Source: Patescibacteria group bacterium
Lineage (GTDB): Bacteria > Patescibacteriota > Patescibacteriia > JBDRGY01
Assembly (NCBI GenBank): GCA_043817315.1
Contig: JBDRGY010000014.1
Coordinates: 8,690-72,689 of the forward strand
Length of the DNA stretch: 64,000 nt
Direction: 5' to 3'
The notes beneath the pieces were generated by a model. The model made no database searches, was not told where the DNA came from, and was given only the letters and a program-made list of their open reading frames with translations. The position numbers were made by a program, and so were the translations under genes. This document shows positions 1 to 30,696 of the stretch, piece after piece (within the stretch, counting starts at the first letter, position 1; each line of letters starts with the position of its first letter).

Positions 1-417
1 TCCCACGATCCAAAATATATCCCCCAGCTGCTTTTAGCAGCCAAGCAATATGATGTAGTTTTGGGATCCAGATACATCCACGGCGGCGGCGTCAGAAATT
101 GGGGTTTATCCCGTCGGCTGATTTCCCAGTTCGGTAATCTGTACGCCAGAGCAATTCTATTGTCACCAGTCAAAGATTTAACAGGGGGTTTTAAATGTTT
201 TAATAAAAAGGTCTTGGAATCTTTAGATTTAGACAATGTAGAATCTTTAGGCTACAACTTTCAGATTGAACTGACTTACAAAACATTAAAAAAAGGTTTT
301 ACCATCAAAGAAATACCTATTATTTTTACGGAAAGAAAAGGCGGTAAGTCCAAGTTTAACATGGGTATTGTTTTAGAAAGTTTTATTAAAGTAATTCAAT
401 TAAGGTTTAAAAAATAG
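1..417 (+). CDS. Glycosyltransferase family 2 (dolichyl-phosphate mannose synthase-like), 5'-truncated at the window edge
   Basis: Frame 1 is open from nt 1 (SHDPKYIPQLLLAAKQYDVVLGSRYIHGGGVRNWGLSRRL...) and continues into the ORF ending at 417. The C-terminal region (GGFKCFNKKVLESLDLD...GYNFQIELTYK) resembles the GT2 DPM1-like family. Confidence 0.55.
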   Translation, partial: SHDPKYIPQLLLAAKQYDVVLGSRYIHGGGVRNWGLSRRLISQFGNLYARAILLSPVKDLTGGFKCFNKKVLESLDLDNVESLGYNFQIELTYKTLKKGFTIKEIPIIFTERKGGKSKFNMGIVLESFIKVIQLRFKK

Positions 418-491
418 TAACACGTAATGAGTAACATGATTTTGTTGCTTTTTTTATTGTCCAAAACGTCTTAAAATGATAAAATTCATTT

Positions 492-2045
492 ATGATTAGC
501 GCCAAAATACGCCAAAACATACCGGAGATATTAAAATATCTCCTTATAGTTGTCTTTATAATAATTTTTTCTTATTTATCGTTTGCTAGGCATGATTCCT
601 TAAAAACATACATGAATGATTTGGGGGCGATTGAACAGGTTATTTGGAACACTCTGAACGGTAATTTTTTTGAAGGCTCTTCGGTGATGTTGGCCGGCAG
701 TGTTGATTACAATTATTTAGGGGCTCATTTTGGGATAATCTTAATTCTGCTAACTCCTTTTTATTGGTTGTTTTCCTCCCCGAAAACTTTACTTTTTATT
801 CAAGTGTTTTTGGTTGGTCTGGCTGGGCTGCCTCTTTATTGGTTAGCCAAGGAAAAGTTGAAAAGCAGTTGGGCGGGGATGGTTTTTCTGATTAGTTATT
901 TATCCTATCCGGCTATTCAAAACGCTTTACTTTACGATTTTCATGAGGTTGTTTTAGCCGCGCCTTTCACAATTTTTGCCTTATACTTCTTAGAAAAAAA
1001 TAAAAAAGTCCCCTTTGTAGTATTTGCTGTTTTGGCCTGCTTGTGCCAGGAGCATATTGCTTTGATTTTTTTCATGGTTGGACTATATATTATTTTTGTC
1101 AAAAAACAAAAACGATTTGGTCTGAAAGTCGCAGCAGCTGCTTTGATTTGGTTTTTACTTTTATTGGGAGTGATCATGCCGGCCCTGTCCACAAGCGGAG
1201 AACCAGAATTAATAAAAGCAGAAACTGAATATTATCCCTCGCGCTATGCTTGGTTAGGAGGTAGTCTTACGGAAGTTGTTAAAAACCTTTTTACTAACCC
1301 CAGCCAAACACTCAGCTACATTTTCCAATACGAAAAAATCAGATATCTTTTTTACTTGCTGATGCCGGTTTTTGGACTTGCTGTTTTTTCACCGATGGTT
1401 TTAGTTGCTTTGCCGATAATCGGGATTAATCTGTTAAGCAGTATCAACATGCCCTATAATTTATATTTTTACCATTCAGCCATTATTACGCCGATGATTA
1501 TGGTGGCAGCTATTTTGGCTTTAAAAAAACATTTTCTGGGCAGTAAATATTTACATTACTTTTTAGCTGCTATTGTTGTAGCCAGTTTGACTATTAATTA
1601 TATTTTTTCTTTGACTCCCTGGACGGCCAGATACAGCCTGGAGGATTTTAGGCCGACTGCTCATGCCAAGAAAATTTCTGAAATTAAGGAATTAATTCCG
1701 GATGAGGCTTCGCTCTCCATTCAACATAATTTAGGTTCCCATTTTACCCAACGCCGGAATATTTTTCGTTTCCCCCTTTCTTACAACGAAGCCGAATATG
1801 TTTTATTGGATTATACTGATCCCTATTACAATAACAGGGAACAGATATTTCATTTTGATTATTCTCTACAAATGCCTAGGAACATTTGGTTTGATTTGAC
1901 TGTAGAATTGATAAATAGCCCGGATTACGGGGTGATTTTTTTTGAGGACGGCTTTTTATTATTCCAAAAAGGAGCAGCCCGAAATCTAAATGACCAGGCC
2001 CACAGCGACATATTCGAGATTATTGATGATGGGGATCGTTTATGA
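492..2045 (+). CDS. Polytopic membrane protein, DUF2079-like
   Basis: 517 aa with more than 10 predicted TM helices. It sits inside a glycosyltransferase/methyltransferase cluster. The family call is by overall architecture only. Confidence 0.4.
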   Translation: MISAKIRQNIPEILKYLLIVVFIIIFSYLSFARHDSLKTYMNDLGAIEQVIWNTLNGNFFEGSSVMLAGSVDYNYLGAHFGIILILLTPFYWLFSSPKTLLFIQVFLVGLAGLPLYWLAKEKLKSSWAGMVFLISYLSYPAIQNALLYDFHEVVLAAPFTIFALYFLEKNKKVPFVVFAVLACLCQEHIALIFFMVGLYIIFVKKQKRFGLKVAAAALIWFLLLLGVIMPALSTSGEPELIKAETEYYPSRYAWLGGSLTEVVKNLFTNPSQTLSYIFQYEKIRYLFYLLMPVFGLAVFSPMVLVALPIIGINLLSSINMPYNLYFYHSAIITPMIMVAAILALKKHFLGSKYLHYFLAAIVVASLTINYIFSLTPWTARYSLEDFRPTAHAKKISEIKELIPDEASLSIQHNLGSHFTQRRNIFRFPLSYNEAEYVLLDYTDPYYNNREQIFHFDYSLQMPRNIWFDLTVELINSPDYGVIFFEDGFLLFQKGAARNLNDQAHSDIFEIIDDGDRL

Positions 2046-2680
2046 AGCCCAATTCTTTTGACGACAGATACAACGAGCAAGTCAAAGATTATTACCGGAA
2101 TATTGAGGATTATGATTGGGTGGAGGTTACTGATAATTGGAAAGGACCAGAATCTATAATTCACAAAAACCGAGAATGGACAATAAAAAAATTGATCAAA
2201 AAATACGGCCAAGGGAAATTTCTGGATGTTGGTTGCGGGGCTGGGCTAATCTTACGCCACCTGCCAAGAGGCTCTCAGGCTATCGATATCAACCCGCGAA
2301 ACATTGCCCGAGTAAAAAAATATGTACCTGATGCCAAAGTAACCCTGGGGGACGCCGAAGATTTACCGTATCAAGATGAACAATTCGATACGGTAATTTG
2401 TACGGAGACTTTAGAGCACCTAGTCAGGCCAGACAGAGCTTTATCAGAAATTCAAAGAGTCCTGAAAACAAACGGCGCTTTGATAGGTTCGGTTCCCCGT
2501 TTGTCGATTATTTGGCGATTCCGTTGGTTGAGCAGCACTCACCCCCATGATGAACCTTTTCACAACGAATACCGAAAAGAAGAATTGAGCAATCTTTTAG
2601 AGATTTTTCCCAAAAATAAAATTTGGAAATCATTAGGTCGAGCCAGCTTTATATTTATTGCGCATAAAAATGACAGTTAG
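2042..2680 (+). CDS. Class I SAM-dependent methyltransferase
   Basis: Motif I LDVGCGAGLILRHL and post-I motif DTVICTETLEHL. The start overlaps the upstream stop (ATGA). Confidence 0.7.
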   Translation: MKPNSFDDRYNEQVKDYYRNIEDYDWVEVTDNWKGPESIIHKNREWTIKKLIKKYGQGKFLDVGCGAGLILRHLPRGSQAIDINPRNIARVKKYVPDAKVTLGDAEDLPYQDEQFDTVICTETLEHLVRPDRALSEIQRVLKTNGALIGSVPRLSIIWRFRWLSSTHPHDEPFHNEYRKEELSNLLEIFPKNKIWKSLGRASFIFIAHKNDS

Positions 2681-4133
2681 ACTTTTCAAACAAAAACATA
2701 TCCTGATATTTATTCTGGTTACCATGGTTTTTCTCATTTGTCTGAAATTGCCCATGGACCCCGATATGGGATGGCACTTACAAGACGGTCAGTTGATCCT
2801 AGCCAACAAAGGAATTCCAGCCACTGATCCTTATTCTTATACCATGCCAGATTTTCCGGTAATTTTTCACGAGTGGTTGACTGATATAATTATGTGGCTG
2901 ATTTATTACCGTCTGGGCCTATTGGTTTTGTCGGTGGTTTTTGCCGCCATCACTTTCTTGGCTTTCATTACGGTAGCTCGGTCCATCCCGGCCAGATTTG
3001 AATATCAGATTTTGGCTGCTCTATTGGGGGCGATCGCTTCTATCCCGATCATTGGTGCTAGGCCTCAGATGATTACTTTATTGGGGCTGGCCATGATCAT
3101 TTATATTTTCTACCGGTTCAAAAACAACCCCCGAAGTAAAATAATCTATTGGTTGCCCCTAATTTTCTTATTTTGGGTCAATTTGCACGGAGGCTTTGTT
3201 ATTGGTTTATTTATTCTTGGTTTATTTTTGGGCCTTGAATTATTAAGACACTGGTTATCCAGGTTTATCAAGAAATTTTCTATTACCATAATGGCCTGGA
3301 GAGATTGGCTGAAATTGGCAATATTAACCGTGGGATCGGCTCTAGTCACTTTGCTAAACCCATATGGTTACAAGATTTATGAAGAAATTTATAGAACTTT
3401 CTTTGACTGTACCTATGCCAGGCAGAATATTTTAGAATGGCTGCCCCTAAAGTTTTTTCAACTAAATGCCACCCAGTTTATTATTTATCTGATTCTTTTT
3501 GTCATCCTTCTTTTGGTGGCTTGGCGCAAGATCGACTTTAGCTATCTGATAGTTACCATAATTTTTGGCGTCTTGGCATTTACCAGCTGGCGCAATGTTC
3601 CATTATTCATTTTAGTTAGTATTCCTTTTTGGGTATATTTTGTGAAAAATTTAACCGGGCAAACTCTGGTCAAATTTATGAGGTCAAAATGGACAATAGT
3701 TGTTTTATTAATCTGTCTATTTTTATTGGGTCAGCAGAAATATAATGAACTTGTTCCTCATACTAAATCTGTGGTAGAATTAGCCAAGAAAGCACATTAT
3801 CCCATTGAATTAACCCAGTGGCTTGCGGATAATCCGCAAGAGGGTAATGTTTTTAACGAATACAATTGGGGAGGGTTCCTTATCTGGCAATTGCCGGAAC
3901 AGAAATTTTTTATTGACGGTCGGATGGCCTGTTGGGAACAAAATGATATTGAGATTTTCCGGATGCATCAGAGGGCTCTAAGGCAAGAAGAAAGTTGGCC
4001 AGAAGTCTTTGACCAGTTTGATATCAAATGGGCCATCTTGGGAAAAAATGATTTGATAGGTGCTATCCTGGTCAGTCAGGGTTGGCAAGAGATTTATGCA
4101 GATGATCTGGCTAAAATATTAAGGAAAGAATAA
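2658..4133 (+). CDS. Polytopic membrane protein, possible GT-C fold glycosyltransferase
   Basis: 491 aa with about 12 TM helices in the N-terminal two-thirds and a soluble C-terminal domain, a topology typical of GT-C family enzymes. The true start may be the ATG at 2670. Confidence 0.35.
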   Translation: MRIKMTVRLFKQKHILIFILVTMVFLICLKLPMDPDMGWHLQDGQLILANKGIPATDPYSYTMPDFPVIFHEWLTDIIMWLIYYRLGLLVLSVVFAAITFLAFITVARSIPARFEYQILAALLGAIASIPIIGARPQMITLLGLAMIIYIFYRFKNNPRSKIIYWLPLIFLFWVNLHGGFVIGLFILGLFLGLELLRHWLSRFIKKFSITIMAWRDWLKLAILTVGSALVTLLNPYGYKIYEEIYRTFFDCTYARQNILEWLPLKFFQLNATQFIIYLILFVILLLVAWRKIDFSYLIVTIIFGVLAFTSWRNVPLFILVSIPFWVYFVKNLTGQTLVKFMRSKWTIVVLLICLFLLGQQKYNELVPHTKSVVELAKKAHYPIELTQWLADNPQEGNVFNEYNWGGFLIWQLPEQKFFIDGRMACWEQNDIEIFRMHQRALRQEESWPEVFDQFDIKWAILGKNDLIGAILVSQGWQEIYADDLAKILRKE

Positions 4134-5879
4134 ATGTTGAAGAATAAAAAACTGTTAATAGTAATCATCGCCGTTTTTTTGTTTTTGCCACAACTAGCCA
4201 GCGCTATTGAGTCGGGCACAATTAGTATCAAGCCGGCTTACCCTGATTCCGATGTCCAGTTTTCTAATAGTTGGTTTATTTACAATTTAGGCCCAGGAGA
4301 AAGCAAAGAAGATGCCTGCCTTATTCTAAATAATGGTGAAGAACCGGTGACGGTCGAGGTTTATTCGGTTGATGCCACTACTACTATTCAGGGTAGCTTT
4401 GCCCCGGGTGATTCCTATACAGAACCGAGCGGAGTCGGTTCCTGGGTAGCAATGTCTGGGCGTGAATTTGTGCTGGAACCAAATTCGGAACTGCTAGTAC
4501 CTTTTACTATTACTATTCCAGAAACAGTGGATGTGGGCGATCATATGGGAGCGGTTATCATTCAGAAAAAAGCGCCGGAACCAACTGAAGCCGGAGGCAC
4601 AGGAGTCAGTATTGTCACCCGAGTTGGGGTCAGGATATACCAGACTGTACCCGGAGAGGTGATCAAAGATCTAGATATCAATAGTCTGACCTGGCGCTAC
4701 GCCGATAGAGTATTATTTGAAGGGGAAGTTTTGAATAACTGGCTGCAATTTAAACGTTATCTGGGCTTTGGCAAGCCAGCCTCGATAGAAGTAGAGATAG
4801 CCAATAAAGGTAATAACAGGCTATTACCAAAAGGCCACTTTACTTTAACCAATATTTTCGGTCAGATCAGCCATAAGCAGGAATCGGATTTGGGAGAGAT
4901 TTTTCCCGGAGAAACTAATAATGTTCCGGTATCTTGGCACAAACCCTGGCCGGCACTTGGCCGTTTTGTCCTCAGGGTTGAAGCCACCTTTGATCAAGAG
5001 TTGCCTCCGGAGGAGAGGGAAATCGTAATTTGGGTTTTGCCGTATAATCTTATTTTTATTCTGATTATTCTGGCGGTACTGATCATCCTGATCCGGCTGA
5101 CCTTTCTACTGGTCATGGTCAAAAAACGCAAAAAGTGGGCTACTCATGTGGTGCAGCCCGAGGAAACTTTGGCCGACATCGCGGTAATGTATTCGGTCAA
5201 ATGGAAAAAAGTGGCTAAGGTCAATAAATTAAAAAAACCATTTAGTTTATCTTCCGGTCAAATTTTGTGGATACCGGGGGTCAAAAAGAAAAAAGAAATG
5301 GAAGAAGTGGGTACTCCTTTACCCCAGGAGGCCAAAGAGGGCAAAACGATTACTATCTGGAAGTGGGATTTGACACCGACTATCTTCTGGTCTAGTTTGT
5401 CGGGATTGATCATAGTGGTGCTGGCCGTTTTATGGTTTGTCTGGCTGGATGATGTTTTCCTGCAACCAACTGTTACTGTCAACGCCAATGTCAATGCCAA
5501 TACTAATGTCAATGTTAACACCTCGTTGATTCCCCAAGAAGCTTTAGATAGAGATATAGTCCGTAAATCTGATTTGGCCGAAATCCAGGAGGCCCTAGAA
5601 AGATATAAAACAGCAGAGGGCCAGTATCCTTTGGCCGAAGACAGAGACAGGACTAACTCCGCCGGGAATCGTTTGCAAGTCGAGCTACAGGACAAAGGTC
5701 ATCTATTGGAGCTACCGGTTGATCCTCTGGATCCCCAATATTATTACGGCTATTTATCAGCAGACGGTTCCAGTTATGAAATTACCGCAGTTTTGGAGAA
5801 CACCGAAGACCCGGAAGGAATCTTAGTCAACGACTTTTATCTCTACCAATTGGCACCAACAGCTTCCGAAGAGATATAA
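4134..5879 (+). CDS. Secreted/membrane protein with a LysM domain and a C-terminal type IV pilin/pseudopilin-like globular domain
   Basis: Signal peptide (MLKNKKLLIVIIAVFLFLPQLASA), TM helix, LysM (HVVQPEETLADIAVMYSVKWKKVAKVNKLKKPFSLSSGQILWIPG), a second TM helix, a NANVNANTNVNVN low-complexity linker, then a GspG-like segment (DLAEIQEALERYKTAEGQYPLAED...LPVDPLDPQYYYGYLSADGSSYEITAVLEN). Confidence 0.55.
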   Translation: MLKNKKLLIVIIAVFLFLPQLASAIESGTISIKPAYPDSDVQFSNSWFIYNLGPGESKEDACLILNNGEEPVTVEVYSVDATTTIQGSFAPGDSYTEPSGVGSWVAMSGREFVLEPNSELLVPFTITIPETVDVGDHMGAVIIQKKAPEPTEAGGTGVSIVTRVGVRIYQTVPGEVIKDLDINSLTWRYADRVLFEGEVLNNWLQFKRYLGFGKPASIEVEIANKGNNRLLPKGHFTLTNIFGQISHKQESDLGEIFPGETNNVPVSWHKPWPALGRFVLRVEATFDQELPPEEREIVIWVLPYNLIFILIILAVLIILIRLTFLLVMVKKRKKWATHVVQPEETLADIAVMYSVKWKKVAKVNKLKKPFSLSSGQILWIPGVKKKKEMEEVGTPLPQEAKEGKTITIWKWDLTPTIFWSSLSGLIIVVLAVLWFVWLDDVFLQPTVTVNANVNANTNVNVNTSLIPQEALDRDIVRKSDLAEIQEALERYKTAEGQYPLAEDRDRTNSAGNRLQVELQDKGHLLELPVDPLDPQYYYGYLSADGSSYEITAVLENTEDPEGILVNDFYLYQLAPTASEEI

Positions 5880-5882: not shown

Positions 5883-8800
5883 ATGAGAGATAAAGTATTT
5901 AAAACAATCAACCTTGTTTGTTTAATTGGCTTGGTTTTATCTACCATACCGAGTGCAGCAATTGATTCCTGGCTCGGTTCTTTTGGTTTAGTGAAGAACG
6001 AAGTACAAGCTGGCATCATTGAACCGCTTATCGAAACGGACTGGCACCCCTTTACTGATAATGCTGTTCGCAAGAAAAATGAAGACGGTACCTGGACCGC
6101 TAATTTCTTCGAGAATAAACGCTATATCGATTATCAGGGTCGTTGGCAGCTGAAGAAAGATTTGTTAACTGTCAAAGTGGGGGATAACGCGGAAATCATC
6201 TTTAATTGGGGAGACAGAGAATTTCAGTTAGTCCCTTATACTTACTTTCATGGAGAAAAATATCGTTACGAAAATCTTAATTCTTTAGTCAAAGAGCAAA
6301 TTGATTTACAGGCAGAGATAAAGGATATTGAGGGTGGGAAAAAGTGGTCGCACACCTTGAATAAAGCTAAGTATTTAGATAAGGTCGGTTTTGTTTTTGA
6401 ACCAGCCGGCCTGATTGTCAAGAAAAATGACACTTTGTTAGCCCTGGATGATTTTTTGTATTTAAGTTTCAACGATTTACTGCAGTCAGGTTACGATATT
6501 GAATTAACCGATCAGGAATTAGTTGTGGCCAATTTGAAAGAAGGTTTAAATATTTTAGATCCCAACTTTAATTCCACAGCAGCGGCTGACGGACAGCTTA
6601 CCAGATCATTCCCCAGCGGCACTAATGATGCCGCTTATCCTTCGGCAGACCCAACTAATATCGGGGACGATCTTGAATTTTTACCCTTTGGAGAAACCAG
6701 CCAATACTTCCGAGGCTATTTTTCTTTTGATACCTCATCTATACCAGACGGCGACTTGTCCAGTATCAGTGGGGCCAGCCTATACACTTATGTAGAGGCT
6801 TTTGTCCGGTCATCCAGATATACCCCTCCCCTTGGTTGGGCTTATGATTACATGTGCGACACTGATGATATCGGTGCCTCGTTAGACACTGGAGACTGGG
6901 ATCTGTCCAGTCCGGTTAATTGTGTTGCTGCCAATAACTGGGGGGGGCCGGGAAATGAAGGCTGGAAAAGCCCAAGCATTGGAGGTGGTAATGTTAATAA
7001 GACCGGAGACACTGATATTGAAATTAAACAGTATTATGGCACCACTGCCGGAAAAAGAGCCTACGCTCAAGTAACCATGACCGAGGACGGCGGGGCCAAT
7101 ATTCCTTATCTGACGGTTACCTACACGGAATACGATCCGGTCCAGAAAAACTGGCGCTGGTATGATGACGAGTGGGACTCTAGAGCAGAGCGGATATATA
7201 TAGTGGATGATTACGATGCCCAGGCTTATGCCAGTTGCGATACAGATGGAACCTTTGCTGGGTCAGAAAGTGAATTTACTTCTGGTGACTACGGCAACAT
7301 TGATGAAGATGACGCCAATCTTGTTCTAGACGGAAATTCAGTAGAGAATGAATACACCTATCACAGATTTGTCTTTACCATTGATGGATCCATTTCGGAC
7401 ATTTATCAGGTTGATGTCACCTGGAAGGGTTATGCCGAGGATGATGATATTAATTATGGCCACTCTTTGTGGATAGAAGAGAACAGTACCTGGACGGAAA
7501 GAGATAGTGGTACCTCTTCCTCCAAAGAGACATTATCATATAGTTATACTTCAGGATTTGGTGACATTATCAGCGGAGGTACCATGGAAGTGGCTGCCCA
7601 GGCCGATGTTACTTCTGGCGGCTTTAATACTTTAAGAAGTTATTACGCTGAAGTCAAAGTTTATTACAACACTTTAAATGAAGATTTAGGAGCGGAAAAT
7701 GCCGAAGCCTACAAAAACCCAATTTTCTGGGATCAAACCCTGAAATTAAGAGTAACCCTGGAGAATGAAGGAGCCATAGCCGGAGATAATATCCGCAAAG
7801 CTTTGCAGTATTCTACGGATGAATCCAGCTGGACTGATGTTTCGGAAAATGACGCCGGAACCCCCAATCTCTGGCGTTACGGCGATCCCATCAAGTGTGG
7901 AGGAACCGATGATGCTGTCCTGCCCGCTTTATTATTAACGGACTCCGATACCTTGGCAACTCATAACGAATCAGGGGATGATGCCTCTACTTATGATCAC
8001 GCCGTGGCGGATTTAGCTGAATACGAATTCTGCTTGGAAAATTACGCAGCTACTCCCGATACGCTTTATTATTTTCGGGTTTATGATAATGGACTGGGAG
8101 AAGAGGTGCCCTTAGACACCAGTGAAACTCATCCCCAATTGACAACCTCTGAGGTGCCGGTCCGCTCCGGACCAGACGGAGTCTTTACCCACTATACTAT
8201 TAATCAAATATATGATAATGACCAACTGGCTATGAAATTCTTGGCTCCGGATGATCTAGCTGACTGGAAAATTGCCTTTTGGGGATCGGAATTCGGTACT
8301 GTCACTGACAGCTTGAAAGTTGATGTTTGTCAGGCCACTGAAGATGATGTTTTTGATGCCAACTGCCTTGTTTTGGACACGGCTTCCATTGACCCATCTG
8401 CAATCAAGGATTGGCAGGCCGATATGGCCTATACTTATGACATTGTTGAAGGTAATTATTACTGGCTGCATTTCTACGAAGATGGCACGGCTGGAGACAG
8501 TACCAATAATTTCCGAGTCAGGAGTGTCAGTTCCCGAATAAAGAAGGAGATTGCTCAGTTTACAACTGACGGTTGGACAGGTACGACCGAAATGGGCAGT
8601 ACAACAATAAGGATAAAAGATGGCAGTGCTACCGATAAAAGGATATACCCGATGTATGTAGGCTCGGATCAGGAATTATATACGGCCGATACTTACCAGA
8701 TATACAGTCCCCGGGCTGATTTAACAGTCAATTACGTCTATTTAAAATTGGCTGGTAGAGATAATACGGGTGGAGATATTTCCCTGAGTATTTGTAATCA

Positions 8801-11021
8801 TGACACCAGCTGTCCCGCCGATTTAGCTACCGGCTCGGCCACTTTTTCCAATACCCAAGGTTATGCCGGTTGGTACCCGATCAAATTGGATGAGGCCATT
8901 ACTCTAGATAGCGACATCAATTACCGGATAAATTTTACGGTTGATACAGCTAGTGATTGGGATATCGGTTATCATATTACTGACCCCAGTACTGAATCAC
9001 TGGAGGGAACTTCTTCTTACGGGGTGTTTGATGGTACTACTTATACTGACCGGGATTGGTCTTTTCGTTTGGCTAATCACGGACTCAACGCCGATGCCGA
9101 ACTGGAAAATCTTAATTCTACTTGGTATAACACGGAAAATGTTCAATCGGGTGCCTTTTTTGGCCGTTGGGCTTTTAAAATCTCGCCGACTGTTAATTCT
9201 ACTTTAAGCTCGGTCAGTTTATACGCCTATAAAGTGGGCAGTCCAACTGATAATTTGGAAGTGGCTATCCAAGCCGATTCATCAGGCAGTCCGGCCGGGA
9301 CCGACTTAGAATTAAAAACAGTGGCTGGCAGCAGCTTGACCACTAGTGCTACTTGGACGGACTGGACCGGCTTTTCTTACAGCCTAACCGCTGGAACTGA
9401 TTATTGGTTAGTGATTACCAGAACCGGTGGAGCCAGTACCGTTAATTACTACCGATTTATTTCCACCATTCATTATAATGATTTATTTCCCTTTAAAATT
9501 TTTAGCGGAGGATCCTGGTCGGGCAACAACACAGCCACTTCCATTGCCTCTAAGGTGACTACTTCCCAAGAAACTTTCAAAAACGAATTTTACAATACTT
9601 CCCAAGCTGTTAACGGTACTGATGAATGGCGTTCCCAGAGCATGGCGCCGGAAGTAGCCAAAAAAGTCAAAGGTTTTTTGGTGCCAGTCGGCGGTTACAA
9701 TTCGAATAATGATGCCACAGCCACCATGAGTTTGTATAGTGATTCCACGGGCAGCCCGGGTTCTGAATTATCCGGTACCAAATCAGAAATCAGACGTCAA
9801 TACCAAGACGATTCTTTGACCGAAACCGGTTTACTGGTTTGGGAGTTTGCTGATACTTACACTATGTCGGCTGATACCCGTTATTGGATTGTCCACAAAG
9901 CGTTAGATGGTACTGCCAGTAACGAAAGTTATTGGCTGGAGGATACTTGGAGGACAGAATCGGATAGTTGGAAAGGGACGACTGAAGGAGCCAAGCATAC
10001 TACCAGTGCAGGGAGTTCTTGGTCCGACCGGGCCTTTGATTTCGATCTTTGGGCGATTGTTGATCCTTATGGCCCCAAATCAGTGGACTGGCGTTTTTAC
10101 GGAGACGAAGCCAGCACTACCCCTAGCTCACCTTACGCGGCGGAAAATACCGCTCCTGACGGGACGATCGGAGACGGCGATGTCTTTAAATTAAGACTAA
10201 CCTTGGATGAGGAAACGGGCACCGGAATTGCTAACAGCAAAAAAAGAATCCAATATGATACGGCTTCCGATTTTTCCGGCACCCCAACTTATGTTGGAGA
10301 GTCCGGTTCGGCAACCATCTGGCGTTATTCCACTTCCTGTGGTGGGGCGGACAATGGTGCCTTAGCCGGTACGGTGATTTCCGGCACCCCAACAGCTGGC
10401 ACTTACAATGAATCTGGCACCAGCACTACTACTTATGACCATGAAGCATCTACCCTGACAGAGTTTGAATTTTGTATTGAAAATAATAGTGCTACGGCCG
10501 CTACCCCATATTATTTTCGGGCTTACGACGTAGCTACGGATGAGGCAATTGATAAAGCTAGCGGAGAAACTTTCCCCAGCCTAACGACGGCCACTTATTC
10601 ACTGCAGATTTTGGCCGAAGACAAAAATATTGGCTTTACCGATTATGGTTTACCGGGCAGTGGTACCTCTACCCATGTTTTTACTTCTGATGAGGAAATT
10701 ATCGCTTCAGACTGGACAGGATCTGGCATCGGTTGGTCAGTTACAGCTTCGGCCACTGATTTGGATAACGGAGAAGAAACAATCGACAACAGCAATATCG
10801 ATTGGACCACTGGCACTATCTGGGCTCTTTATGGAGCTGATACCACCAGTGTGACGACCGCTTGTGCTCCCTGTAATTTAAATTCTGAGCAAACTATTTT
10901 TTCCGCTGCTTCCGGTTACGGGAAAGGCAGTTATTATATCCAACCGACTGTTGTTCTTACCCTCAGTGAAAGTGAATTTATCGGAAACTATGTTTCTGAA
11001 GTAACTTTAACGATTTCTTAG
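5883..11021 (+). CDS. Giant secreted surface protein (1712 aa) with an internally duplicated domain
   Basis: Signal peptide MRDKVFKTINLVCLIGLVLSTIPSAA. Composition is rich in Thr/Ser/Asp/Gly. An approximately 120-aa domain (W.RY....CGG.D...........Y.ESG...TYDH....L.E.EFC.EN...T....YYFR.YD) occurs twice. Confidence 0.6.
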   Translation: MRDKVFKTINLVCLIGLVLSTIPSAAIDSWLGSFGLVKNEVQAGIIEPLIETDWHPFTDNAVRKKNEDGTWTANFFENKRYIDYQGRWQLKKDLLTVKVGDNAEIIFNWGDREFQLVPYTYFHGEKYRYENLNSLVKEQIDLQAEIKDIEGGKKWSHTLNKAKYLDKVGFVFEPAGLIVKKNDTLLALDDFLYLSFNDLLQSGYDIELTDQELVVANLKEGLNILDPNFNSTAAADGQLTRSFPSGTNDAAYPSADPTNIGDDLEFLPFGETSQYFRGYFSFDTSSIPDGDLSSISGASLYTYVEAFVRSSRYTPPLGWAYDYMCDTDDIGASLDTGDWDLSSPVNCVAANNWGGPGNEGWKSPSIGGGNVNKTGDTDIEIKQYYGTTAGKRAYAQVTMTEDGGANIPYLTVTYTEYDPVQKNWRWYDDEWDSRAERIYIVDDYDAQAYASCDTDGTFAGSESEFTSGDYGNIDEDDANLVLDGNSVENEYTYHRFVFTIDGSISDIYQVDVTWKGYAEDDDINYGHSLWIEENSTWTERDSGTSSSKETLSYSYTSGFGDIISGGTMEVAAQADVTSGGFNTLRSYYAEVKVYYNTLNEDLGAENAEAYKNPIFWDQTLKLRVTLENEGAIAGDNIRKALQYSTDESSWTDVSENDAGTPNLWRYGDPIKCGGTDDAVLPALLLTDSDTLATHNESGDDASTYDHAVADLAEYEFCLENYAATPDTLYYFRVYDNGLGEEVPLDTSETHPQLTTSEVPVRSGPDGVFTHYTINQIYDNDQLAMKFLAPDDLADWKIAFWGSEFGTVTDSLKVDVCQATEDDVFDANCLVLDTASIDPSAIKDWQADMAYTYDIVEGNYYWLHFYEDGTAGDSTNNFRVRSVSSRIKKEIAQFTTDGWTGTTEMGSTTIRIKDGSATDKRIYPMYVGSDQELYTADTYQIYSPRADLTVNYVYLKLAGRDNTGGDISLSICNHDTSCPADLATGSATFSNTQGYAGWYPIKLDEAITLDSDINYRINFTVDTASDWDIGYHITDPSTESLEGTSSYGVFDGTTYTDRDWSFRLANHGLNADAELENLNSTWYNTENVQSGAFFGRWAFKISPTVNSTLSSVSLYAYKVGSPTDNLEVAIQADSSGSPAGTDLELKTVAGSSLTTSATWTDWTGFSYSLTAGTDYWLVITRTGGASTVNYYRFISTIHYNDLFPFKIFSGGSWSGNNTATSIASKVTTSQETFKNEFYNTSQAVNGTDEWRSQSMAPEVAKKVKGFLVPVGGYNSNNDATATMSLYSDSTGSPGSELSGTKSEIRRQYQDDSLTETGLLVWEFADTYTMSADTRYWIVHKALDGTASNESYWLEDTWRTESDSWKGTTEGAKHTTSAGSSWSDRAFDFDLWAIVDPYGPKSVDWRFYGDEASTTPSSPYAAENTAPDGTIGDGDVFKLRLTLDEETGTGIANSKKRIQYDTASDFSGTPTYVGESGSATIWRYSTSCGGADNGALAGTVISGTPTAGTYNESGTSTTTYDHEASTLTEFEFCIENNSATAATPYYFRAYDVATDEAIDKASGETFPSLTTATYSLQILAEDKNIGFTDYGLPGSGTSTHVFTSDEEIIASDWTGSGIGWSVTASATDLDNGEETIDNSNIDWTTGTIWALYGADTTSVTTACAPCNLNSEQTIFSAASGYGKGSYYIQPTVVLTLSESEFIGNYVSEVTLTIS

Positions 11022-11054
11022 TTGTCAGGGAGGAATAGCTAAACGAAAGGACCA

Positions 11055-11083
11055 TTGCTTTACCTGTTTTTTTGTGCTAGAAT
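11055..11083 (+). promoter_or_regulatory. Sigma70-type promoter (TTGCTT-17-TAGAAT)
   Basis: TTGCTT followed by a 17-nt spacer ending in TG, then TAGAAT. It is embedded in a 40-nt motif that recurs at 12221-12260. Confidence 0.4.
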
Positions 11084-11105
11084 AATATAACAAGTTGAAT
11101 AAATA

Positions 11106-12047
11106 TTGACTGAATATAAGGATAAGACTATGAAAAGAAAGACAGTTGGGAAAATAATCGTCCTGATGTTGATTATTCTTTTCGGCCTTGTAGGTGTTGC
11201 TCAGGCTTATGATCTCAATGCTTTTGATTTTGTGGTCTATGGTGATTCCCATGCTGGTTATGAACCAGCTGTGCCTATTCATGAGGCAATCCTGGCCGAA
11301 ATCGAGACCATTGAACCAGATCTGATTTTACACACCGGTGATTATACTCATGGCGATGATCCGACAACTTGCGCCATATTCGAAGAAGTTACCCAACGGG
11401 TTAGAAGTAATTACCCATATTATTTGACTACTGGAAACCATGATGAAGATAAAGTGTGCGCTGTAGACTCCTATCATTTCAACTTCAAAGATGCCTTATT
11501 TGTTTCTCTGAAAGTCCCGAAATTTACTGACAAACTCTCCGTTGAAAGGTTTAATTGGCTAAAGAGTCTGATAAAAAATTCGGCCAAACGCTTTAAATTC
11601 GTATTTTTTCACAATCCGCCTTATTCCACAGGAATTAGAGGATGCAATACCACCATTCGAGAACAAATCAGTGATCTTCTGGATAACTACCGGGTAGATG
11701 TAGTTTTCAACGGTCATGCTCATGGTTATGAGCGGTTCACTGTCGGTAATGTTAAATACGTAGTAACCGGAGGAGGTGGAGGAGTGCCCCACGATCTGGG
11801 TACTATTAATTGTACAAACCCGATTAATTCGCTACAGTATTCGGAAGAAACTTATAACTACGTTAAAGTTCAGGTTAAAACTAACAGTTTGACACTAGAG
11901 GCCTATAACACTGATGGGGAAATGATCGATACCATGTCGATAGTCAAGCCGCCAGTTAAGAAAAAAATATTAGCTTCAGCCATTGAAAAACCTCTAACCA
12001 TCTTTAAAAGAGGTTTGACCAAGATCAAGGATATAATGGGATTCTAG
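11106..12047 (+). CDS. Secreted calcineurin-like metallophosphoesterase
   Basis: Motifs GDSHAG, HTGDYTHGDD, TGNHDE and GHAHGYER, with an N-terminal signal/TM segment. Confidence 0.75.
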   Translation: MTEYKDKTMKRKTVGKIIVLMLIILFGLVGVAQAYDLNAFDFVVYGDSHAGYEPAVPIHEAILAEIETIEPDLILHTGDYTHGDDPTTCAIFEEVTQRVRSNYPYYLTTGNHDEDKVCAVDSYHFNFKDALFVSLKVPKFTDKLSVERFNWLKSLIKNSAKRFKFVFFHNPPYSTGIRGCNTTIREQISDLLDNYRVDVVFNGHAHGYERFTVGNVKYVVTGGGGGVPHDLGTINCTNPINSLQYSEETYNYVKVQVKTNSLTLEAYNTDGEMIDTMSIVKPPVKKKILASAIEKPLTIFKRGLTKIKDIMGF

Positions 12048-12225
12048 CCGACGGAGCTTTATCGGGAGGTCGTTTTTATTATAATACAACCCTTGGTTTA
12101 TTCCGGAAGAGTATTTACTTTTTTAGACGGTCTGTTTTAATGGCCCTGAATAGAGTTATAATAAATCTACTGTAGCCATTACGATATTATGATATTATGA
12201 TAAAGAGAAATTTCTCGGGGGACCG

Positions 12226-12254
12226 TTGCTTTCCCTGTTTTTTTATGCTATAAT
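12226..12254 (+). promoter_or_regulatory. Sigma70-type promoter with extended -10 (TTGCTT-17-TGcTATAAT)
   Basis: TTGCTT at 12226-31, a 17-nt spacer, and TATAAT at 12249-54 preceded by TGC. It lies upstream of tRNA-Val and lepB. Confidence 0.45.
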
Positions 12255-12302
12255 ACTATTACTTTTAGCTAATTTAAGGGAAAAAACAGGGAGTTCCAGC
12301 TC

Positions 12303-12379
12303 GGGCGGCTAGCTCAGCTGGTCAGAGCGTACGGTTCACATCCGTAAGGTCACAAGTTCGAGTCTTGTGCCGCCCACCA
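12303..12379 (+). tRNA. tRNA-Val (anticodon CAC)
   Basis: Manual cloverleaf: acceptor GGGCGGC/GCCGCCC, D-stem GCTC/GAGC, anticodon stem TACGG/CCGTA with loop TTCACAT, T-arm ACAAG-TTCGAGT-CTTGT, discriminator A, and an encoded CCA. Confidence 0.85.
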
Positions 12380-12398
12380 TAAATAATATAATAATAAA

Positions 12399-13046
12399 AT
12401 GCTAGGACAGCTAGGCAAACCAAAGAGTTTAGAAAAACAGAAGATAGAGGAAGAGATGTCCAAAGAGGAAATCACTCCTCCTTTTTGGAAATCAGTCAGT
12501 AGTTTCGTTGTCGAAGTATTGAAGATAGTGATTATCTCTCTGGTGATTATTATTCCAATTCGTTATTTCCTGATCAAGCCTTTTTATGTAAAAGGTGCTT
12601 CTATGGAACCCACCTTTTACGATCACGAGTATCTGGTAATTGACGAAATATCCTATCGTTTTAAAGACCCGGCCAGAGGTGATATTGTAGTTTTCCGTTA
12701 TTCAGAAGACACTTCCCAGTTTTTTATCAAAAGATTGATTGGATTGCCTGGAGAGACTGTAGAAATTTCCCAGGGAGAGGTGGTTATTTACAATGGACAT
12801 GACAGTCAAGGCACCACCCTGGATGAGACCGCTTATCTGGATACCAATGTAACTACTTCCGGGGACGTCTTGGTCAATTTGGCCAGCCAAGAATACTTTG
12901 TATTAGGCGATAACAGGCCCTACAGTTTAGACTCCAGGCGCATTGGCAACATCACCCGGGAAGATATCATTGGTAAGACCTGGATAAGAGCCTGGCCTTT
13001 TTACAAATTTAAACATTTTAATAATCCTGAATATAACTTTGAATAA
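12399..13046 (+). CDS. lepB: Signal peptidase I
   Basis: N-terminal TM helix, the GASMEPTF box with catalytic Ser, the RLIGLPGE region containing the catalytic Lys, and GDNRPYSLDSR. Confidence 0.8.
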   Translation: MLGQLGKPKSLEKQKIEEEMSKEEITPPFWKSVSSFVVEVLKIVIISLVIIIPIRYFLIKPFYVKGASMEPTFYDHEYLVIDEISYRFKDPARGDIVVFRYSEDTSQFFIKRLIGLPGETVEISQGEVVIYNGHDSQGTTLDETAYLDTNVTTSGDVLVNLASQEYFVLGDNRPYSLDSRRIGNITREDIIGKTWIRAWPFYKFKHFNNPEYNFE

Positions 13047-13052
13047 GACAGT

Positions 13053-14417
13053 ATGCCACGTAAACCTACAAAAAAAGAAAAGACAGCTCTAGCTAATCTG
13101 GAGACCGAGCCCAAAAACAAAGCACATCAAGCTCATCTCCTAAAAGGGATGAAAGATATCTTGCCGGCCGATCAGAAATATTGGGACTTTATTTTTGATA
13201 AAGTCAGGTCTATGGCCACTGATTATGGATACTCCAGGATTGAGACGCCGATAATGGAAGAAACCGGCTTGTTCGTCCGTGCGGTAGGAAAAGAAACAGA
13301 TATTGTGGAGAAAGAAGTATATTCCTTTGCCGACAAGGGCGAAGAAAACGTAACCCTTAGGCCGGAAAATACAGCGGCAGTTGCCAGGGCCTATATCGAA
13401 CACGGCTTTCTGGCTCAACCCCAACCGGTTAAGCTTTTTTATTTTGGACCCTTTTTCCGCTACAGTCGCCCTCAGTCCGGCCGCTACAGACAGTTTTGGC
13501 AGTTTGGTTTTGAGGTGATTGGCGAAGATCATCCTATTGTCGATGCCCAATTAATATTCCTGGCCTATAAGATTTTAGAAGAGATTGGGTTGAAAGTGTC
13601 TGTTCAGGTAAACAGTATCGGCTGCCCCAGTTGCCGGGAAAACTTTCAGCAGGTATTGATCGAGTATTTCCGCTCCAAACGTAAATCCCTTTGCGAGGAC
13701 TGCAAAAGGAGATTATCGAAAAATCCTTTACGCCTTTTGGATTGCAAGGAACCAGCCTGCCAAGAGGTCGCCCAAGACAGTCCCCAGATTGTCGATTACC
13801 TTTGCGAGGAATGTCGTGAGCATTTTGTTAAAGTCTTGGAATATTTGGACAGCCTAGATATTTCTTATACCCTAAACCCCCATTTAGTGCGAGGATTGGA
13901 TTACTACACTCGTACCGCTTTTGAGATTTGGCCAGAGGGCGAAGACCTAACAGCCCAATCCGCTTTGGGTGGTGGGGGGCGCTATGACAATTTAATTGAA
14001 CAGGTAGGAGGAAGACCAACGTCTGCCTCCGGGTTTGCCTGCGGCATCGAAAGAATAATCATCCGCCTTAAAGACAAGAACATCCCAGTGCCCGGCAAAC
14101 CAGCCCCGGATATTTTTCTGGCCCAACTGGGAGTCTCGGCCCGCAAAGAATGCCTCAAGCTGTATGAGAGAATGCGCAGCGAAAAAATAAAAGTGGCAGA
14201 AGACTTTTCTCAAGACAGTATCAAGGACCAGCTGGCCAGAGCTTCCAAGTTGAAGGCTAAACTATCTTTGATCCTGGGCCAGAAAGAGATTTTAGATGGC
14301 ACCATTCTGGTTCGAGACATGGAAAACGGAATTCAAGAGGTAGTTGACTATTCCAAAATAATTCCCGAAATCCAAAAAAGATTGGACAAAATCAACAATA
14401 CAGCCAACAATAATTAG
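13053..14417 (+). CDS. hisS: Histidyl-tRNA synthetase with a Cys-rich insertion
   Basis: Class II aaRS motifs (FYFGPFFRYSRPQSGRYRQFWQFG, GGGRYDNL) and a C-terminal anticodon-binding domain. The insertion contains four CxxC-like pairs (CPSC, CEDC, CKEPAC, CEEC). The real start may be the internal M at MKDILPAD. Confidence 0.85.
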   Translation: MPRKPTKKEKTALANLETEPKNKAHQAHLLKGMKDILPADQKYWDFIFDKVRSMATDYGYSRIETPIMEETGLFVRAVGKETDIVEKEVYSFADKGEENVTLRPENTAAVARAYIEHGFLAQPQPVKLFYFGPFFRYSRPQSGRYRQFWQFGFEVIGEDHPIVDAQLIFLAYKILEEIGLKVSVQVNSIGCPSCRENFQQVLIEYFRSKRKSLCEDCKRRLSKNPLRLLDCKEPACQEVAQDSPQIVDYLCEECREHFVKVLEYLDSLDISYTLNPHLVRGLDYYTRTAFEIWPEGEDLTAQSALGGGGRYDNLIEQVGGRPTSASGFACGIERIIIRLKDKNIPVPGKPAPDIFLAQLGVSARKECLKLYERMRSEKIKVAEDFSQDSIKDQLARASKLKAKLSLILGQKEILDGTILVRDMENGIQEVVDYSKIIPEIQKRLDKINNTANNN

Positions 14418-22629: not shown

Positions 22630-22646
22630 ATAAAAGGAAAAAGATA

Positions 22647-27664: not shown

Positions 27665-27680
27665 ACCGACTATTCTAACA

Positions 27681-29966: not shown

Positions 29967-29977
29967 GTATCTTTAAT

Positions 29978-30685: not shown

Positions 30686-30696
30686 TTCTCTCTACC

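What the first reader, a model, noticed from the sequence alone, without database searches (positions are those of the whole stretch)
4134..5879. Unusual fusion of a LysM domain and a type IV pilin/pseudopilin-like globular domain, without a prepilin leader
The protein has a cleavable signal peptide and a beta-rich N-domain. A TM helix, a LysM peptidoglycan-binding motif, a second TM helix, an NANVNANTNVN spacer and then a segment closely resembling the GspG/type IV pilin core follow (EALERYKTAEGQYPLAE...LPVDPLDPQYYYGY). No class III (G/A)FTLIE leader is present, so it cannot be a PilD substrate. It may act as a peptidoglycan-tethered pilus-associated or minor-pilin-like adaptor. It directly precedes a 1712-aa secreted giant with a 3-nt gap, which suggests a functional pair.
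Basis: partly seen in the sequence, partly recalled or inferred. Interest (0 to 1): 0.55.

Follow-up and report, generated by a model that had tools for sequence, protein, structure and literature searches.

The report
Elaborated WxL-interacting surface anchor in Patescibacteria
The gene encodes a membrane anchor of the WxL-interacting family, so far described almost only in lactobacilli and enterococci. It is found here in an ultrasmall candidate-phyla bacterium with a LysM loop predicted to face the cytoplasm and a leaderless pilin-like head outside, paired with a giant surface protein that carries the matching WxL-like tail.

Summary
ORF 4134..5879 (581 aa) has a signal peptide, a beta-rich ectodomain, TM1, a LysM above the Pfam threshold, TM2, an Asn-rich linker and a GspG-like head with no prepilin leader.

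The N-terminal ectodomain is a WxL-interacting protein (WxLIP, DUF916). Pfam PF06030 scores E 3.8e-10. The best structural match of the AF2 model is E. faecium WxLIP bound to a long WxL protein (9i25, E 1e-16, TM 0.72).

The 1712-aa neighbour ends in a WxL-like domain and is conserved next to the orthologues. This is therefore a Patescibacteria version of the Gram-positive WxL surface cluster, not a pilus accessory. The 64-kb window holds no pilus genes and no prepilin leader.

By topology the LysM lies between two TM helices on the K/R-rich side, so it is predicted to be cytoplasmic. "Peptidoglycan-tethered" is therefore doubtful.

The core of WxLIP, TM helix and LysM is common in Patescibacteria. 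The C-terminal outside module varies between pilin-like and LytR_C. The leaderless GspG-like head is itself a large family: 5122 clusters, with no leader among the top 148 checked.

Verdict: a new variant of a known kind, of moderate interest.

The parts
4134..5879 (+). Gene for the 581-aa WxLIP-LysM-pilin-head protein
   Evidence: ORF. The identical protein is in NCBI as 'MAG: DUF916 domain-containing protein [Patescibacteria group bacterium]'.
4134..4205 (+). Sec-type signal peptide (aa 1-24, cleavage after LASA)
   Evidence: Read from the sequence. AF2 helix 5-21. Hydrophobic peak at 7-25.
4224..4565 (+). WxLIP PGBD / DUF916 Ig-like domain (aa 31-144 by Pfam; the strands continue to about aa 172)
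   Evidence: PF06030, E 3.8e-10, above GA. Profile A2 hits the EfmWxLIP1 chains 9i25_C and 9i1y_A at E 3.5e-6.
4671..5036 (+). Second Ig-like domain, in the position of the WxLIP HBD (aa about 180-301)
   Evidence: No Pfam hit for it. The AF2 model aligns over 280 columns with the two-domain E. faecium WxLIP 9i25_C, TM 0.72, E 1.2e-16.
5043..5132 (+). TM1 (aa 304-333), followed by KKRKK
   Evidence: Hydropathy 3.2. AF2 helix. Across 118 relatives there are 5.1 K/R in the 18 residues after it against 2.0 before it.
5145..5276 (+). LysM domain (aa 338-381), in the loop between TM1 and TM2, predicted cytoplasmic
   Evidence: PF01476, E 6.6e-9. The AF2 elements strand 335-339, helices 346-352 and 357-363 and strand 377-384 fit a beta-alpha-alpha-beta fold, pLDDT above 90. 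The loop holds 19 K/R against 9 D/E.
5376..5459 (+). TM2 (aa 415-442), an ordinary TM helix and not a prepilin alpha1N
   Evidence: No prepilin motif.
5460..5534 (+). Asn-rich disordered linker (aa 443-467)
   Evidence: pLDDT below 50 at 442-463. It is replaced by K/E/Q-rich linkers in the 36-38% identical orthologues.
5535..5858 (+). Leaderless GspG/pilin-like head domain (aa 468-575): one long helix followed by beta-strands
   Evidence: T2SSG 24.1 bits, above GA 21. PDB profile hits are all GspG. AF2 pLDDT 89. Foldseek top hits are PulG, EpsG, PilW, PilE and PilA1.
5883..11021 (+). 1712-aa secreted giant, read as the 'large WxL' partner
   Evidence: Homologous to the 1478-aa neighbour of the 38%-identical orthologue (E 2e-40), and the same gene follows the 62%-identical orthologue. 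Weak NCBIfam hit to choice-of-anchor R.
10515..11018 (+). WxL-like C-terminal domain of the giant (aa 1545-1712; GWSVT motif; ends ...VTLTIS)
   Evidence: BLASTP E 2e-15 to small proteins in L001 that pass the Pfam WxL GA. Its own WxL score is 19-20 bits, below GA 25. 15 of 18 aligned family members hit PF13731.
1..4133 (+). Conserved upstream block: GT2 (cut by the window start), DUF2079, SAM methyltransferase and a 491-aa polytopic membrane protein
   Evidence: The same order lies upstream of the orthologues in L003, L004, L007, L008 and L037. L009 shows only DUF2079 and the 491-aa membrane protein there.

Best explanation
The protein is a Patescibacteria member of the WxL-interacting protein family (WxLIP; DUF916, CscA, DufA). 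It works as the membrane-anchored partner of the adjacent giant protein.

Shown:
- After Sec export, the tandem Ig-like ectodomain (aa 25-303) has the WxLIP fold and sequence signature.
- The giant ends in a domain homologous to WxL domains.
- The two genes are adjacent, 3 nt apart, and remain adjacent in the orthologues.

Inferred from the E. faecium WxLIP-long WxL complex and the published AlphaFold2 model:
- The DUF916 domain docks the WxL-like C-terminus of the giant, possibly by beta-strand insertion.
- This holds a large, variable, adhesin-like protein non-covalently on the cell surface.

Inferred from topology:
- TM1 leads into a basic cytoplasmic loop that folds as a LysM.
- TM2 brings the chain out again.
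- A flexible Asn-rich stalk then presents a GspG-like head as a second outside module.
- This module is exchangeable. Sister clades carry one or two LytR_C domains in its place, or nothing. It is therefore most likely an accessory binding or docking domain and not a filament subunit.

The role of the cytoplasmic LysM is unknown. I guess that it tethers or positions the complex from inside, through a cell-wall precursor or a protein partner.
For: WxLIP identity:
- PF06030 above GA.
- Foldseek of the AF2 model (pLDDT 85.5) gives 9i25_C and 9i1y (E. faecium WxLIP, one bound to a long WxL) as the top three hits, E 1e-16, TM 0.65-0.72 over 280 columns.
- The family profile hits EfmWxLIP1 by sequence, E 3.5e-6.

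Partner:
- The giant's C-terminus matches small Pfam-WxL proteins of L001 at E 2e-11 to 2e-15.
- 15 of 18 aligned members hit PF13731.
- An HMM of this domain finds a WxL-like ORF within 6 kb of the WxLIP gene in 38 of 65 loci. Many of those loci show the classic triad of small WxL, WxLIP and large WxL.
- Giant homologues follow the orthologues in L001 and L003.

Topology:
- Signal peptide, then TM1, the KKRKK stretch, the loop and TM2.
- 5.1 K/R after TM1 against 2.0 before it in 118 relatives.
- The LysM segment carries +14.6 net charge per 100 aa, against -3.4 for the ectodomain.
- In the roughly 400-aa forms the LysM is the tail after the only TM helix.

Module swapping: the C-termini after TM2 are pilin-like (13 proteins) or LytR_C.

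Published definition of WxLIP and of the WxL cluster: PMC10599100.
Against: - The giant's own WxL score is below the Pfam threshold (19-20 bits against 25). Its second W-x-L motif is missing (it ends TLTIS). The profile of the domain finds no PDB chain, not even the long WxL of 9i25.
- No small WxL gene is inside the window. In relatives it lies upstream of the GT2 gene, which is where the window begins.
- The second Ig domain gets no Pfam HBD hit.
- No complex prediction could be run, so the docking is by analogy only.
- The topology rests on hydropathy and the positive-inside rule, not on a dedicated predictor or an experiment.
- The function of the pilin-like head is not established by anything here.
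Confidence: 0.7

Rival explanations
1. One reading: a peptidoglycan-tethered adaptor associated with a pilus or pseudopilus. It would use the pilin-like head to dock on, or cap, a type IV filament and the LysM to hold on to the wall.
For: The head domain is truly GspG-like. Type IV pili are common in Patescibacteria (titles and abstracts listed).
Against: - No prepilin leader.
- The head helix is cut off from TM2 by a disordered linker, so it cannot pack like alpha1N in a filament.
- No PilB, PilC, PilD or prepilin ORFs in the 64-kb window.
- A stand-alone member of the leaderless family sits among housekeeping genes.
- The LysM is on the predicted cytoplasmic side.
- The conserved neighbours are WxL-type proteins, not pilus genes.
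Confidence: 0.07
2. The topology inference is wrong and the LysM is outside. It would then bind peptidoglycan as a classical wall anchor, reinforcing the WxLIP ectodomain.
For: The LysM is canonical in sequence and predicted fold. Basic LysM tails are typical of wall-binding proteins (my own knowledge).
Against: - With a cleaved signal peptide and an external ectodomain, the chain after TM1 must be inside.
- In about 60 relatives of roughly 400-470 aa the LysM follows the only TM helix.
- The K/R distribution fits the positive-inside rule at TM1 and at TM2.
Confidence: 0.1
3. The protein is primarily part of a surface glycan or glycoprotein assembly line, together with the four conserved upstream genes (GT2, DUF2079, a methyltransferase and the 491-aa membrane protein). 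It would act as a chaperone-like scaffold that presents the giant for modification rather than as a static anchor.
For: - Gene order is tight and conserved, with overlapping or abutting genes.
- DUF2079 weakly matches a 'cell surface glycopolymer formation' family.
- The next-best structural matches of the ectodomain are chaperone-usher chaperones.
Against: - The glycosyl block is absent from many WxLIP loci that keep the WxL triad.
- No enzymatic domain lies in the protein itself.
- This view is compatible with the main explanation rather than an alternative to it.
Confidence: 0.13

Closest known systems
WxL-interacting proteins of Lactobacillales and Bacillales (EfmWxLIP1/DufA of E. faecium, CscA of L. 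plantarum; PDB 9i25, 9i1y; PMC10599100)
   Same: Signal peptide, a DUF916 Ig-like domain, a second Ig-like domain and a TM helix. The gene lies next to a large protein with a C-terminal WxL-type domain. Small WxL genes occur in the cluster in relatives.
   Different: - The host is a Patescibacteria MAG.
- 581 aa rather than 320-380 aa.
- The chain continues after the TM helix with a LysM, a second TM helix and a pilin-like head.
- Only 13-14% identity to the solved structure.
- The second domain has no Pfam HBD hit.
- The partner's WxL domain keeps only the first Trp motif.
GspG / PulG major pseudopilins and type IV pilin heads (PF08334; PDB 1t92, 2kep, 3fu1, 4lw9)
   Same: A long amphipathic helix followed by beta-strands, and the sequence pattern D..RK.DL..I..AL..Y....G.YP ... 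DP...Y.Y.
   Different: - No class III leader and no Glu5.
- No hydrophobic alpha1N contiguous with the helix.
- Tethered to an unrelated TM helix by a disordered linker.
- Sits at the C-terminus of a multidomain protein.
- No secretion or pilus genes nearby.
Sister architectures in Patescibacteria: WxLIP-TM-LysM (about 400-470 aa) and WxLIP-TM-LysM-TM-LytR_C (about 650-720 aa)
   Same: The same WxLIP ectodomain, TM1 and basic LysM (30-43% identity). In several of them the same upstream gene block is present.
   Different: The module after TM2 is LytR_C (PF13399, one or two copies) or is absent. The downstream gene in L004 is not homologous to the giant.
LysM domains that work inside the cell: E. 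coli Kbp/YgaU, B. subtilis SafA and SpoVID (my own knowledge; Kbp and SafA chains appear among the PDB hits)
   Same: A LysM fold in a protein that is not exported.
   Different: Those are soluble or coat proteins. Here the LysM is a loop or tail of a membrane protein whose other domains are outside.

Membership tests
WxLIP (WxL-interacting protein; DUF916-DUF3324-TMH) | N-terminal signal peptide | tested here: met
   MLKNKKLLIVIIAVFLFLPQLASA|IE, with hydrophobic peak at 7-25 and AF2 helix 5-21. No dedicated signal-peptide predictor was available.
WxLIP (WxL-interacting protein; DUF916-DUF3324-TMH) | PGBD / DUF916 domain (PF06030) | tested here: met
   E 3.8e-10, 40.3 bits against GA 27.3. The family profile hits EfmWxLIP1 at E 3.5e-6.
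WxLIP (WxL-interacting protein; DUF916-DUF3324-TMH) | Second Ig-like HBD / DUF3324 domain directly after the PGBD | tested here: inconclusive
   No Pfam HBD hit. The two-domain AF2 model aligns over 280 columns with 9i25_C at TM 0.72.
WxLIP (WxL-interacting protein; DUF916-DUF3324-TMH) | TM helix after the HBD that ends the protein; total length 320-380 aa | tested here: not met
   TM1 is in the right place (aa 304-333), but the chain continues for 248 more residues, giving 581 aa. Short forms of 320-340 aa do exist in other Patescibacteria.
WxLIP (WxL-interacting protein; DUF916-DUF3324-TMH) | [quoted passage not shown] | tested here: inconclusive
   A large WxL-like protein is adjacent, but scores below the Pfam GA. 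No small WxL is in the window. In L003, L004 and L008 it lies upstream of the GT2 gene, beyond the window start.
WxLIP (WxL-interacting protein; DUF916-DUF3324-TMH) | Physical binding to a WxL domain | not testable with these tools
   No multimer prediction or experiment was available.
WxL domain (PF13731), for the giant's C-terminus | Pfam match above the gathering score and two W-x-L motifs | tested here: not met
   19.3-20.4 bits against GA 25. The first motif is GWSV; the second is missing (it ends VTLTIS). Homology is supported transitively: BLASTP E 2e-15 to L001 proteins that do pass the GA.
LysM (PF01476) | Sequence match and beta-alpha-alpha-beta fold | tested here: met
   E 6.6e-9, 36 bits against GA 20.9. 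AF2 places a strand at 335-339, helices at 346-352 and 357-363 and a strand at 377-384.
LysM (PF01476) | Extracytoplasmic location with access to peptidoglycan | tested here: not met
   The loop lies between TM1 and TM2 on the K/R-rich side. This is a prediction only.
Type IV pilin / pseudopilin (class III signal peptide proteins) | Prepilin leader G|[FM][ST]L[IL]E with Glu5, making the protein a PilD substrate | tested here: not met
   No match anywhere in the protein, and none in the top 148 relatives of the head domain that were checked.
Type IV pilin / pseudopilin (class III signal peptide proteins) | Continuous alpha1 helix whose N-terminal half is the hydrophobic polymerisation segment | tested here: not met
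   TM2 (415-442) and the head helix (468-495) are separated by a linker with pLDDT below 50.
Type IV pilin / pseudopilin (class III signal peptide proteins) | Pilin-type alpha/beta head (T2SSG, PF08334) | tested here: met
   24.1 bits against GA 21 on the isolated domain. PDB GspG chains at E 2e-5 to 7e-3. The Foldseek top 11 are all pilins, but weakly, with best E 1.2e-2 and TM 0.47-0.54.
Type IV pilin / pseudopilin (class III signal peptide proteins) | Genomic association with an assembly ATPase, a platform protein or a prepilin peptidase | tested here: not met
   Pfam scans of 36 of the 37 ORFs of 150 aa or more at 12-64 kb, and of the large + strand ORFs at 1-12 kb, found none. HisRS 13053..14417 was named only by synteny with L001. 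No prepilin-like leaders were found. ORFs shorter than 150 aa were checked only for leaders (60 aa and longer), not with Pfam.

The most novel reading that the evidence does not exclude
Patescibacteria have turned the WxL/WxLIP surface-display system into a through-membrane device. An external WxLIP that holds a giant adhesin is wired by TM1 to a cytoplasmic, very basic LysM. That LysM would read or bind something inside the cell, such as a lipid-linked GlcNAc-MurNAc precursor or a protein partner. TM2 then leads to a leaderless pseudopilin head, which belongs to a large surface-module family not described in the literature I could search (more than 5000 sequence clusters). If so, both LysM and the pilin head have jobs here that differ from their textbook ones, and the locus would be a candidate host-attachment apparatus of episymbiotic ultrasmall bacteria.
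Probability: 0.25. Interest if true: 0.7.

Novelty: new variant of a known kind. Interest (0 to 1): 0.5.

Why it matters
WxL clusters are described as surface-display and adhesion systems found 'almost entirely' in Lactobacillales and Bacillales (PMC10599100). Here they appear across Patescibacteria lineages: 59 genome loci were found, nearly all with Patescibacteria titles.

These versions have elaborated anchors. How the ultrasmall, mostly episymbiotic cells of this group display giant surface proteins and attach to hosts is poorly understood. A named anchor-partner pair gives a concrete, testable candidate.

Two side results have wider use. A LysM is systematically placed on the predicted cytoplasmic side of a membrane protein family. 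There is also a very large family of GspG-like heads without prepilin leaders, at least one of which automatic annotation labels 'GspG'.

Tried and rejected
- A word-indexed homologue search with the C-terminal 129 aa returned nothing, not even the protein itself. It was replaced by the exhaustive profile search.
- Exact look-ups of the window's own proteins (the WxLIP, the giant and DUF2079) found no contig on record. The DNA upstream of the window, where a small WxL gene is expected, could not be read.
- The profile of the WxL-like domain found no PDB chain.
- The 491-aa upstream membrane protein has no Pfam, NCBIfam or PDB match and is not a detectable paralogue of DUF2079.
- I considered and rejected a gene-fusion or assembly artefact, because the architecture is conserved among the 36-82% identical relatives from several sources.
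- I considered and rejected a true pilin with a degenerate leader, because neither the leader nor a continuous alpha1 helix is present.
- The top hit P0121 of the representative search is repetitive, with 15 partial stretches. I ignored it as probably compositional.
- Literature searches found no paper that links WxL with Patescibacteria and nothing useful on cytoplasmic LysM.
Full report
**1. Observation**

ORF 4134..5879 (+) encodes 581 aa. Its ATG directly follows the stop codon of the upstream gene, and an AGGAAAG sequence lies just upstream. The next ORF (5883..11021, 1712 aa) starts 3 nt after its stop.

- An N-terminal Sec-type signal peptide (…LASA|IE).
- A beta-rich region.
- A strongly hydrophobic helix at aa 304-333 followed by KKRKK.
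- A LysM at aa 338-381 (PF01476, E 6.6e-9, above threshold).
- A second hydrophobic helix at aa 415-442.
- An Asn-rich stretch.
- A C-terminal segment that matches T2SSG (PF08334). It scores 20.4 bits in the whole protein, just below the gathering score of 21. It scores 24.1 bits (E 3.9e-5) when the last 141 aa are scanned alone.

No prepilin motif occurs anywhere in the protein. The identical protein is in NCBI as 'MAG: DUF916 domain-containing protein [Patescibacteria group bacterium]'. Thirteen relatives of 36-82% identity, among hits drawn from NCBI, ENA, JGI and Logan, keep the full architecture. The fusion is therefore real and conserved, not an assembly artefact.

**2. What the N-terminal domain is**

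- Pfam places WxLIP_PGBD (DUF916, PF06030) at aa 31-144 (E 3.8e-10, 40.3 bits against 27.3).
- An AlphaFold2 model built on 96 homologues has mean pLDDT 85.5. It shows two beta-sandwich domains at aa 30-301.
- Foldseek against the PDB returns as its three best matches the E. faecium WxL-interacting protein, alone (9i1y) and 'bound to long WxL' (9i25_C). The values are E 1.2e-16, TM 0.72 on the target and 280 aligned columns.
- The next matches are RbmA and chaperone-usher chaperones, with much lower TM scores.
- The family profile also finds EfmWxLIP1 by sequence, at E 3.5e-6.

Hassan, Chaudhuri and Williamson (PMC10599100) define WxLIP as signal peptide, DUF916, DUF3324 and a TM helix, 320-380 aa in all. 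It occurs in clusters with a small and a large WxL protein. They describe WxL proteins as 'almost entirely' restricted to Lactobacillales and Bacillales.

**3. The partner**

The C-terminal 212 aa of the giant hit Pfam WxL weakly (E 1.2e-3, 19.3 bits, below the 25-bit threshold). Stronger support comes from relatives.
- In L001, whose WxLIP is 38% identical, three small proteins of 192-196 aa pass the WxL threshold (25.1-28.7 bits). The giant's last 142 residues match them by BLASTP at E 2e-11 to 2e-15.
- In an alignment of 18 such domains, 15 hit PF13731, the best at 6.4e-8.
- An HMM of that alignment finds a WxL-like ORF within 6 kb of the WxLIP gene in 38 of 65 loci. Many of these loci were not used to build the HMM. 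Several show the textbook triad of small WxL, WxLIP and large WxL (for example L023, L026 and L031).

The giant itself is conserved next to the orthologues. The 1478-aa neighbour in L001 shares the N-terminal region (27% over 368 aa), an internal repeat (41% over 245 aa, E 2e-40) and the C-terminus. In L003 the neighbour matches the giant's N-terminal 450 aa at a BLASTP E-value reported as 0.

There are four caveats.
- The giant's domain keeps only the first Trp motif (GWSVT) and ends …VTLTIS.
- Its own Pfam score is sub-threshold.
- The domain profile finds no PDB chain.
- No small WxL gene lies in the window. In L003, L004 and L008 it sits just upstream of the GT2 gene, and that is where the window begins. 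I could not fetch the upstream DNA.

**4. Topology and the LysM**

With a cleaved signal peptide and an external ectodomain, the chain after TM1 must be cytoplasmic, and TM2 takes it out again. The charge distribution agrees with this.
- Across 118 relatives there are 5.1 K/R in the 18 residues after TM1 against 2.0 before it.
- The LysM segment carries +14.6 net charge per 100 aa, against -3.4 for the ectodomain.
- In this protein the loop holds 19 K/R and 9 D/E. The ectodomain holds 21 and 38, and the C-terminal part 9 and 25.
- In the commonest relatives (about 400-470 aa) there is no second TM helix. The LysM is simply the tail after the single anchor, followed by a basic P/A/K-rich extension.

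The LysM is therefore predicted to be inside the cell, and 'peptidoglycan-tethered' is unlikely in the usual sense. The domain itself is canonical in sequence and in predicted fold. From my own knowledge, LysM domains in non-exported proteins are known (Kbp, SafA, SpoVID). Kbp and SafA chains appear among the weaker PDB hits. The topology here is inferred, not measured, and no dedicated predictor was available.

**5. The pilin-like head**

It is not a pilin in the functional sense.
- It has no leader.
- TM2 is an ordinary TM helix.
- TM2 is separated from the head helix by a disordered linker, Asn-rich here and K/E/Q-rich in more distant orthologues.

The exhaustive profile search shows that this is a general phenomenon. 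There are 5122 representative clusters at E ≤ 1e-3 and 622 at E ≤ 1e-10. None of the top 148 representatives I checked has a credible prepilin leader. Most are bitopic proteins with a disordered N-terminus, one TM helix, a spacer and then this domain at or near the C-terminus. Several pass the T2SSG threshold, and one is annotated 'GspG' by NCBI. The one stand-alone example whose context I read lies among housekeeping genes.

In the window, Pfam scans of 36 of the 37 ORFs of 150 aa or more at 12-64 kb, and of the large + strand ORFs at 1-12 kb, found no PilB, PilC or PilD. A motif scan found no prepilin leader.

**6. Family picture**

The core of WxLIP, TM helix and LysM is widespread in Patescibacteria. 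A scan of species-representative genomes gave 59 loci. They come from Moranbacteria, Komeilibacteria, Kerfeldbacteria, Saccharibacteria, Parcubacteria, Microgenomates, Levybacteria and Gottesmanbacteria, plus a few contigs with other taxon labels.

The part after the LysM is modular. It can be absent, or it can be TM2 followed by one or two LytR_C domains, or TM2 followed by the pilin-like head. Among the fetched loci the pilin-like version occurs only in the window, L001/L002, L003 and L006.

In all three independent pilin-type loci where the downstream gene is visible, that gene is a homologue of the giant. In the LytR_C-type locus L004 it is not. This hints that the outside module goes with the partner, but three loci are too few to conclude.

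**7. Mechanism proposed**

Shown: the domain identities, the gene adjacency and its conservation, and the family-level association of WxLIP with WxL-like proteins.

Inferred from the E. faecium complex and the published AlphaFold2 model: the DUF916 domain docks the giant's WxL-like C-terminus and so retains a large, variable, probably adhesive protein on the surface.

Inferred from topology: the LysM loop is inside, and the pilin-like head sits outside on a flexible stalk as an exchangeable accessory binding module.

Unknown: what the LysM and the head bind.

The conserved upstream block suggests that surface glycan chemistry is coupled to the system. The block comprises GT2, DUF2079 (a weak match to a 'cell surface glycopolymer formation' family), a methyltransferase and a 491-aa polytopic protein.

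**8. Comparison and novelty**

The protein works like a WxLIP and meets the family's sequence and fold criteria. It fails the architectural criterion, because the TM helix does not end the protein and the length is not 320-380 aa. The cluster criterion is only partly verifiable here.

It is not a pilin, because three of five defining features were tested and not met.

I found no paper that links WxL with Patescibacteria.

I rate it a new variant of a known kind. The family is known, and automatic annotation already labels the gene 'DUF916 domain-containing'. What has not been described is the link to WxL clusters in Patescibacteria, the inside LysM and the leaderless pilin-head module.

Interest is 0.5. 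The result is moderately surprising to specialists in Gram-positive surface proteins and in candidate-phyla biology. It offers a concrete candidate for how these cells display giant surface proteins, but there is no functional evidence.

Noticed in passing
window 1-4133: GT2 (cut by the window start), DUF2079, a SAM methyltransferase and a 491-aa polytopic membrane protein with no Pfam, NCBIfam or PDB match form a tight block. The block is conserved directly upstream of the WxLIP forms that have LysM and TM2, and it sits between the small WxL genes and the WxLIP gene in relatives. It may reflect a coupled glycosylation or glycopolymer step.
   Followed up: partly
window 15558-21830: A second giant (2090 aa) has an N-terminal T4SS_pilin domain (PF18895) followed by Big_5, TIG and CBM_4_9 domains. 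It is syntenic with a 1480-aa protein in L001. Two TSP3-repeat proteins follow it (21850-24302).
   Followed up: no
window 27645-31814: A ribonucleotide reductase with an ATP-cone, then the corrinoid adenosyltransferase BtuR, then a cobalamin riboswitch (30471-30699), then DUF4430 and DUF6580 genes. This looks like a B12 uptake and use cluster.
   Followed up: no
window 45568-48120: A GC-rich island (0.558 against about 0.43 in the rest of the window). It holds two membrane-associated ORFs of 446 and 388 aa with no Pfam match, and may have been acquired horizontally.
   Followed up: no
window 48229-51591: A 1120-aa protein with NHL, FG-GAP and TIG repeats, another large predicted surface protein.
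   Followed up: no
proteins P0122-P0268: Leaderless GspG-like heads form a very large family (5122 clusters at 50% identity). Most are bitopic proteins with a disordered N-terminus and a single ordinary TM helix. At least one is annotated as 'type II secretion system protein GspG'.
   Followed up: partly
L065/L066 11854-13314: A diversity-generating retroelement signature (bAvd plus a reverse transcriptase) lies 2 kb downstream of a stand-alone leaderless GspG-like protein (P0132).
   Followed up: no
L006 (contig JAIWBS010000068.1): A 3.5-kb contig filed under a Pirellulales MAG carries an 81% identical copy of this gene and of its upstream neighbour. It is probably a mis-binned Patescibacteria contig. 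Several 'uncultured Gammaproteobacteria' titles among the loci look similarly mislabelled.
   Followed up: no
L032, L040 and L051, at about 9900-13550: Kerfeldbacteria and Microgenomates loci carry two WxLIP-LysM paralogues about 1 kb apart.
   Followed up: no
proteins P0041, P0044, P0047, P0056, P0065, P0076, P0079 and P0116: The roughly 400-470-aa WxLIP-LysM forms end in long, very basic P/A/K-rich tails after the LysM, on the predicted cytoplasmic side.
   Followed up: partly
window 5883-11021: The source database lists a Pfam family PF27237 for the giant. That family is absent from the Pfam copy I searched, so I could not look up its meaning. NCBIfam gives a sub-threshold 'choice-of-anchor R' match in three stretches.
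   Followed up: no
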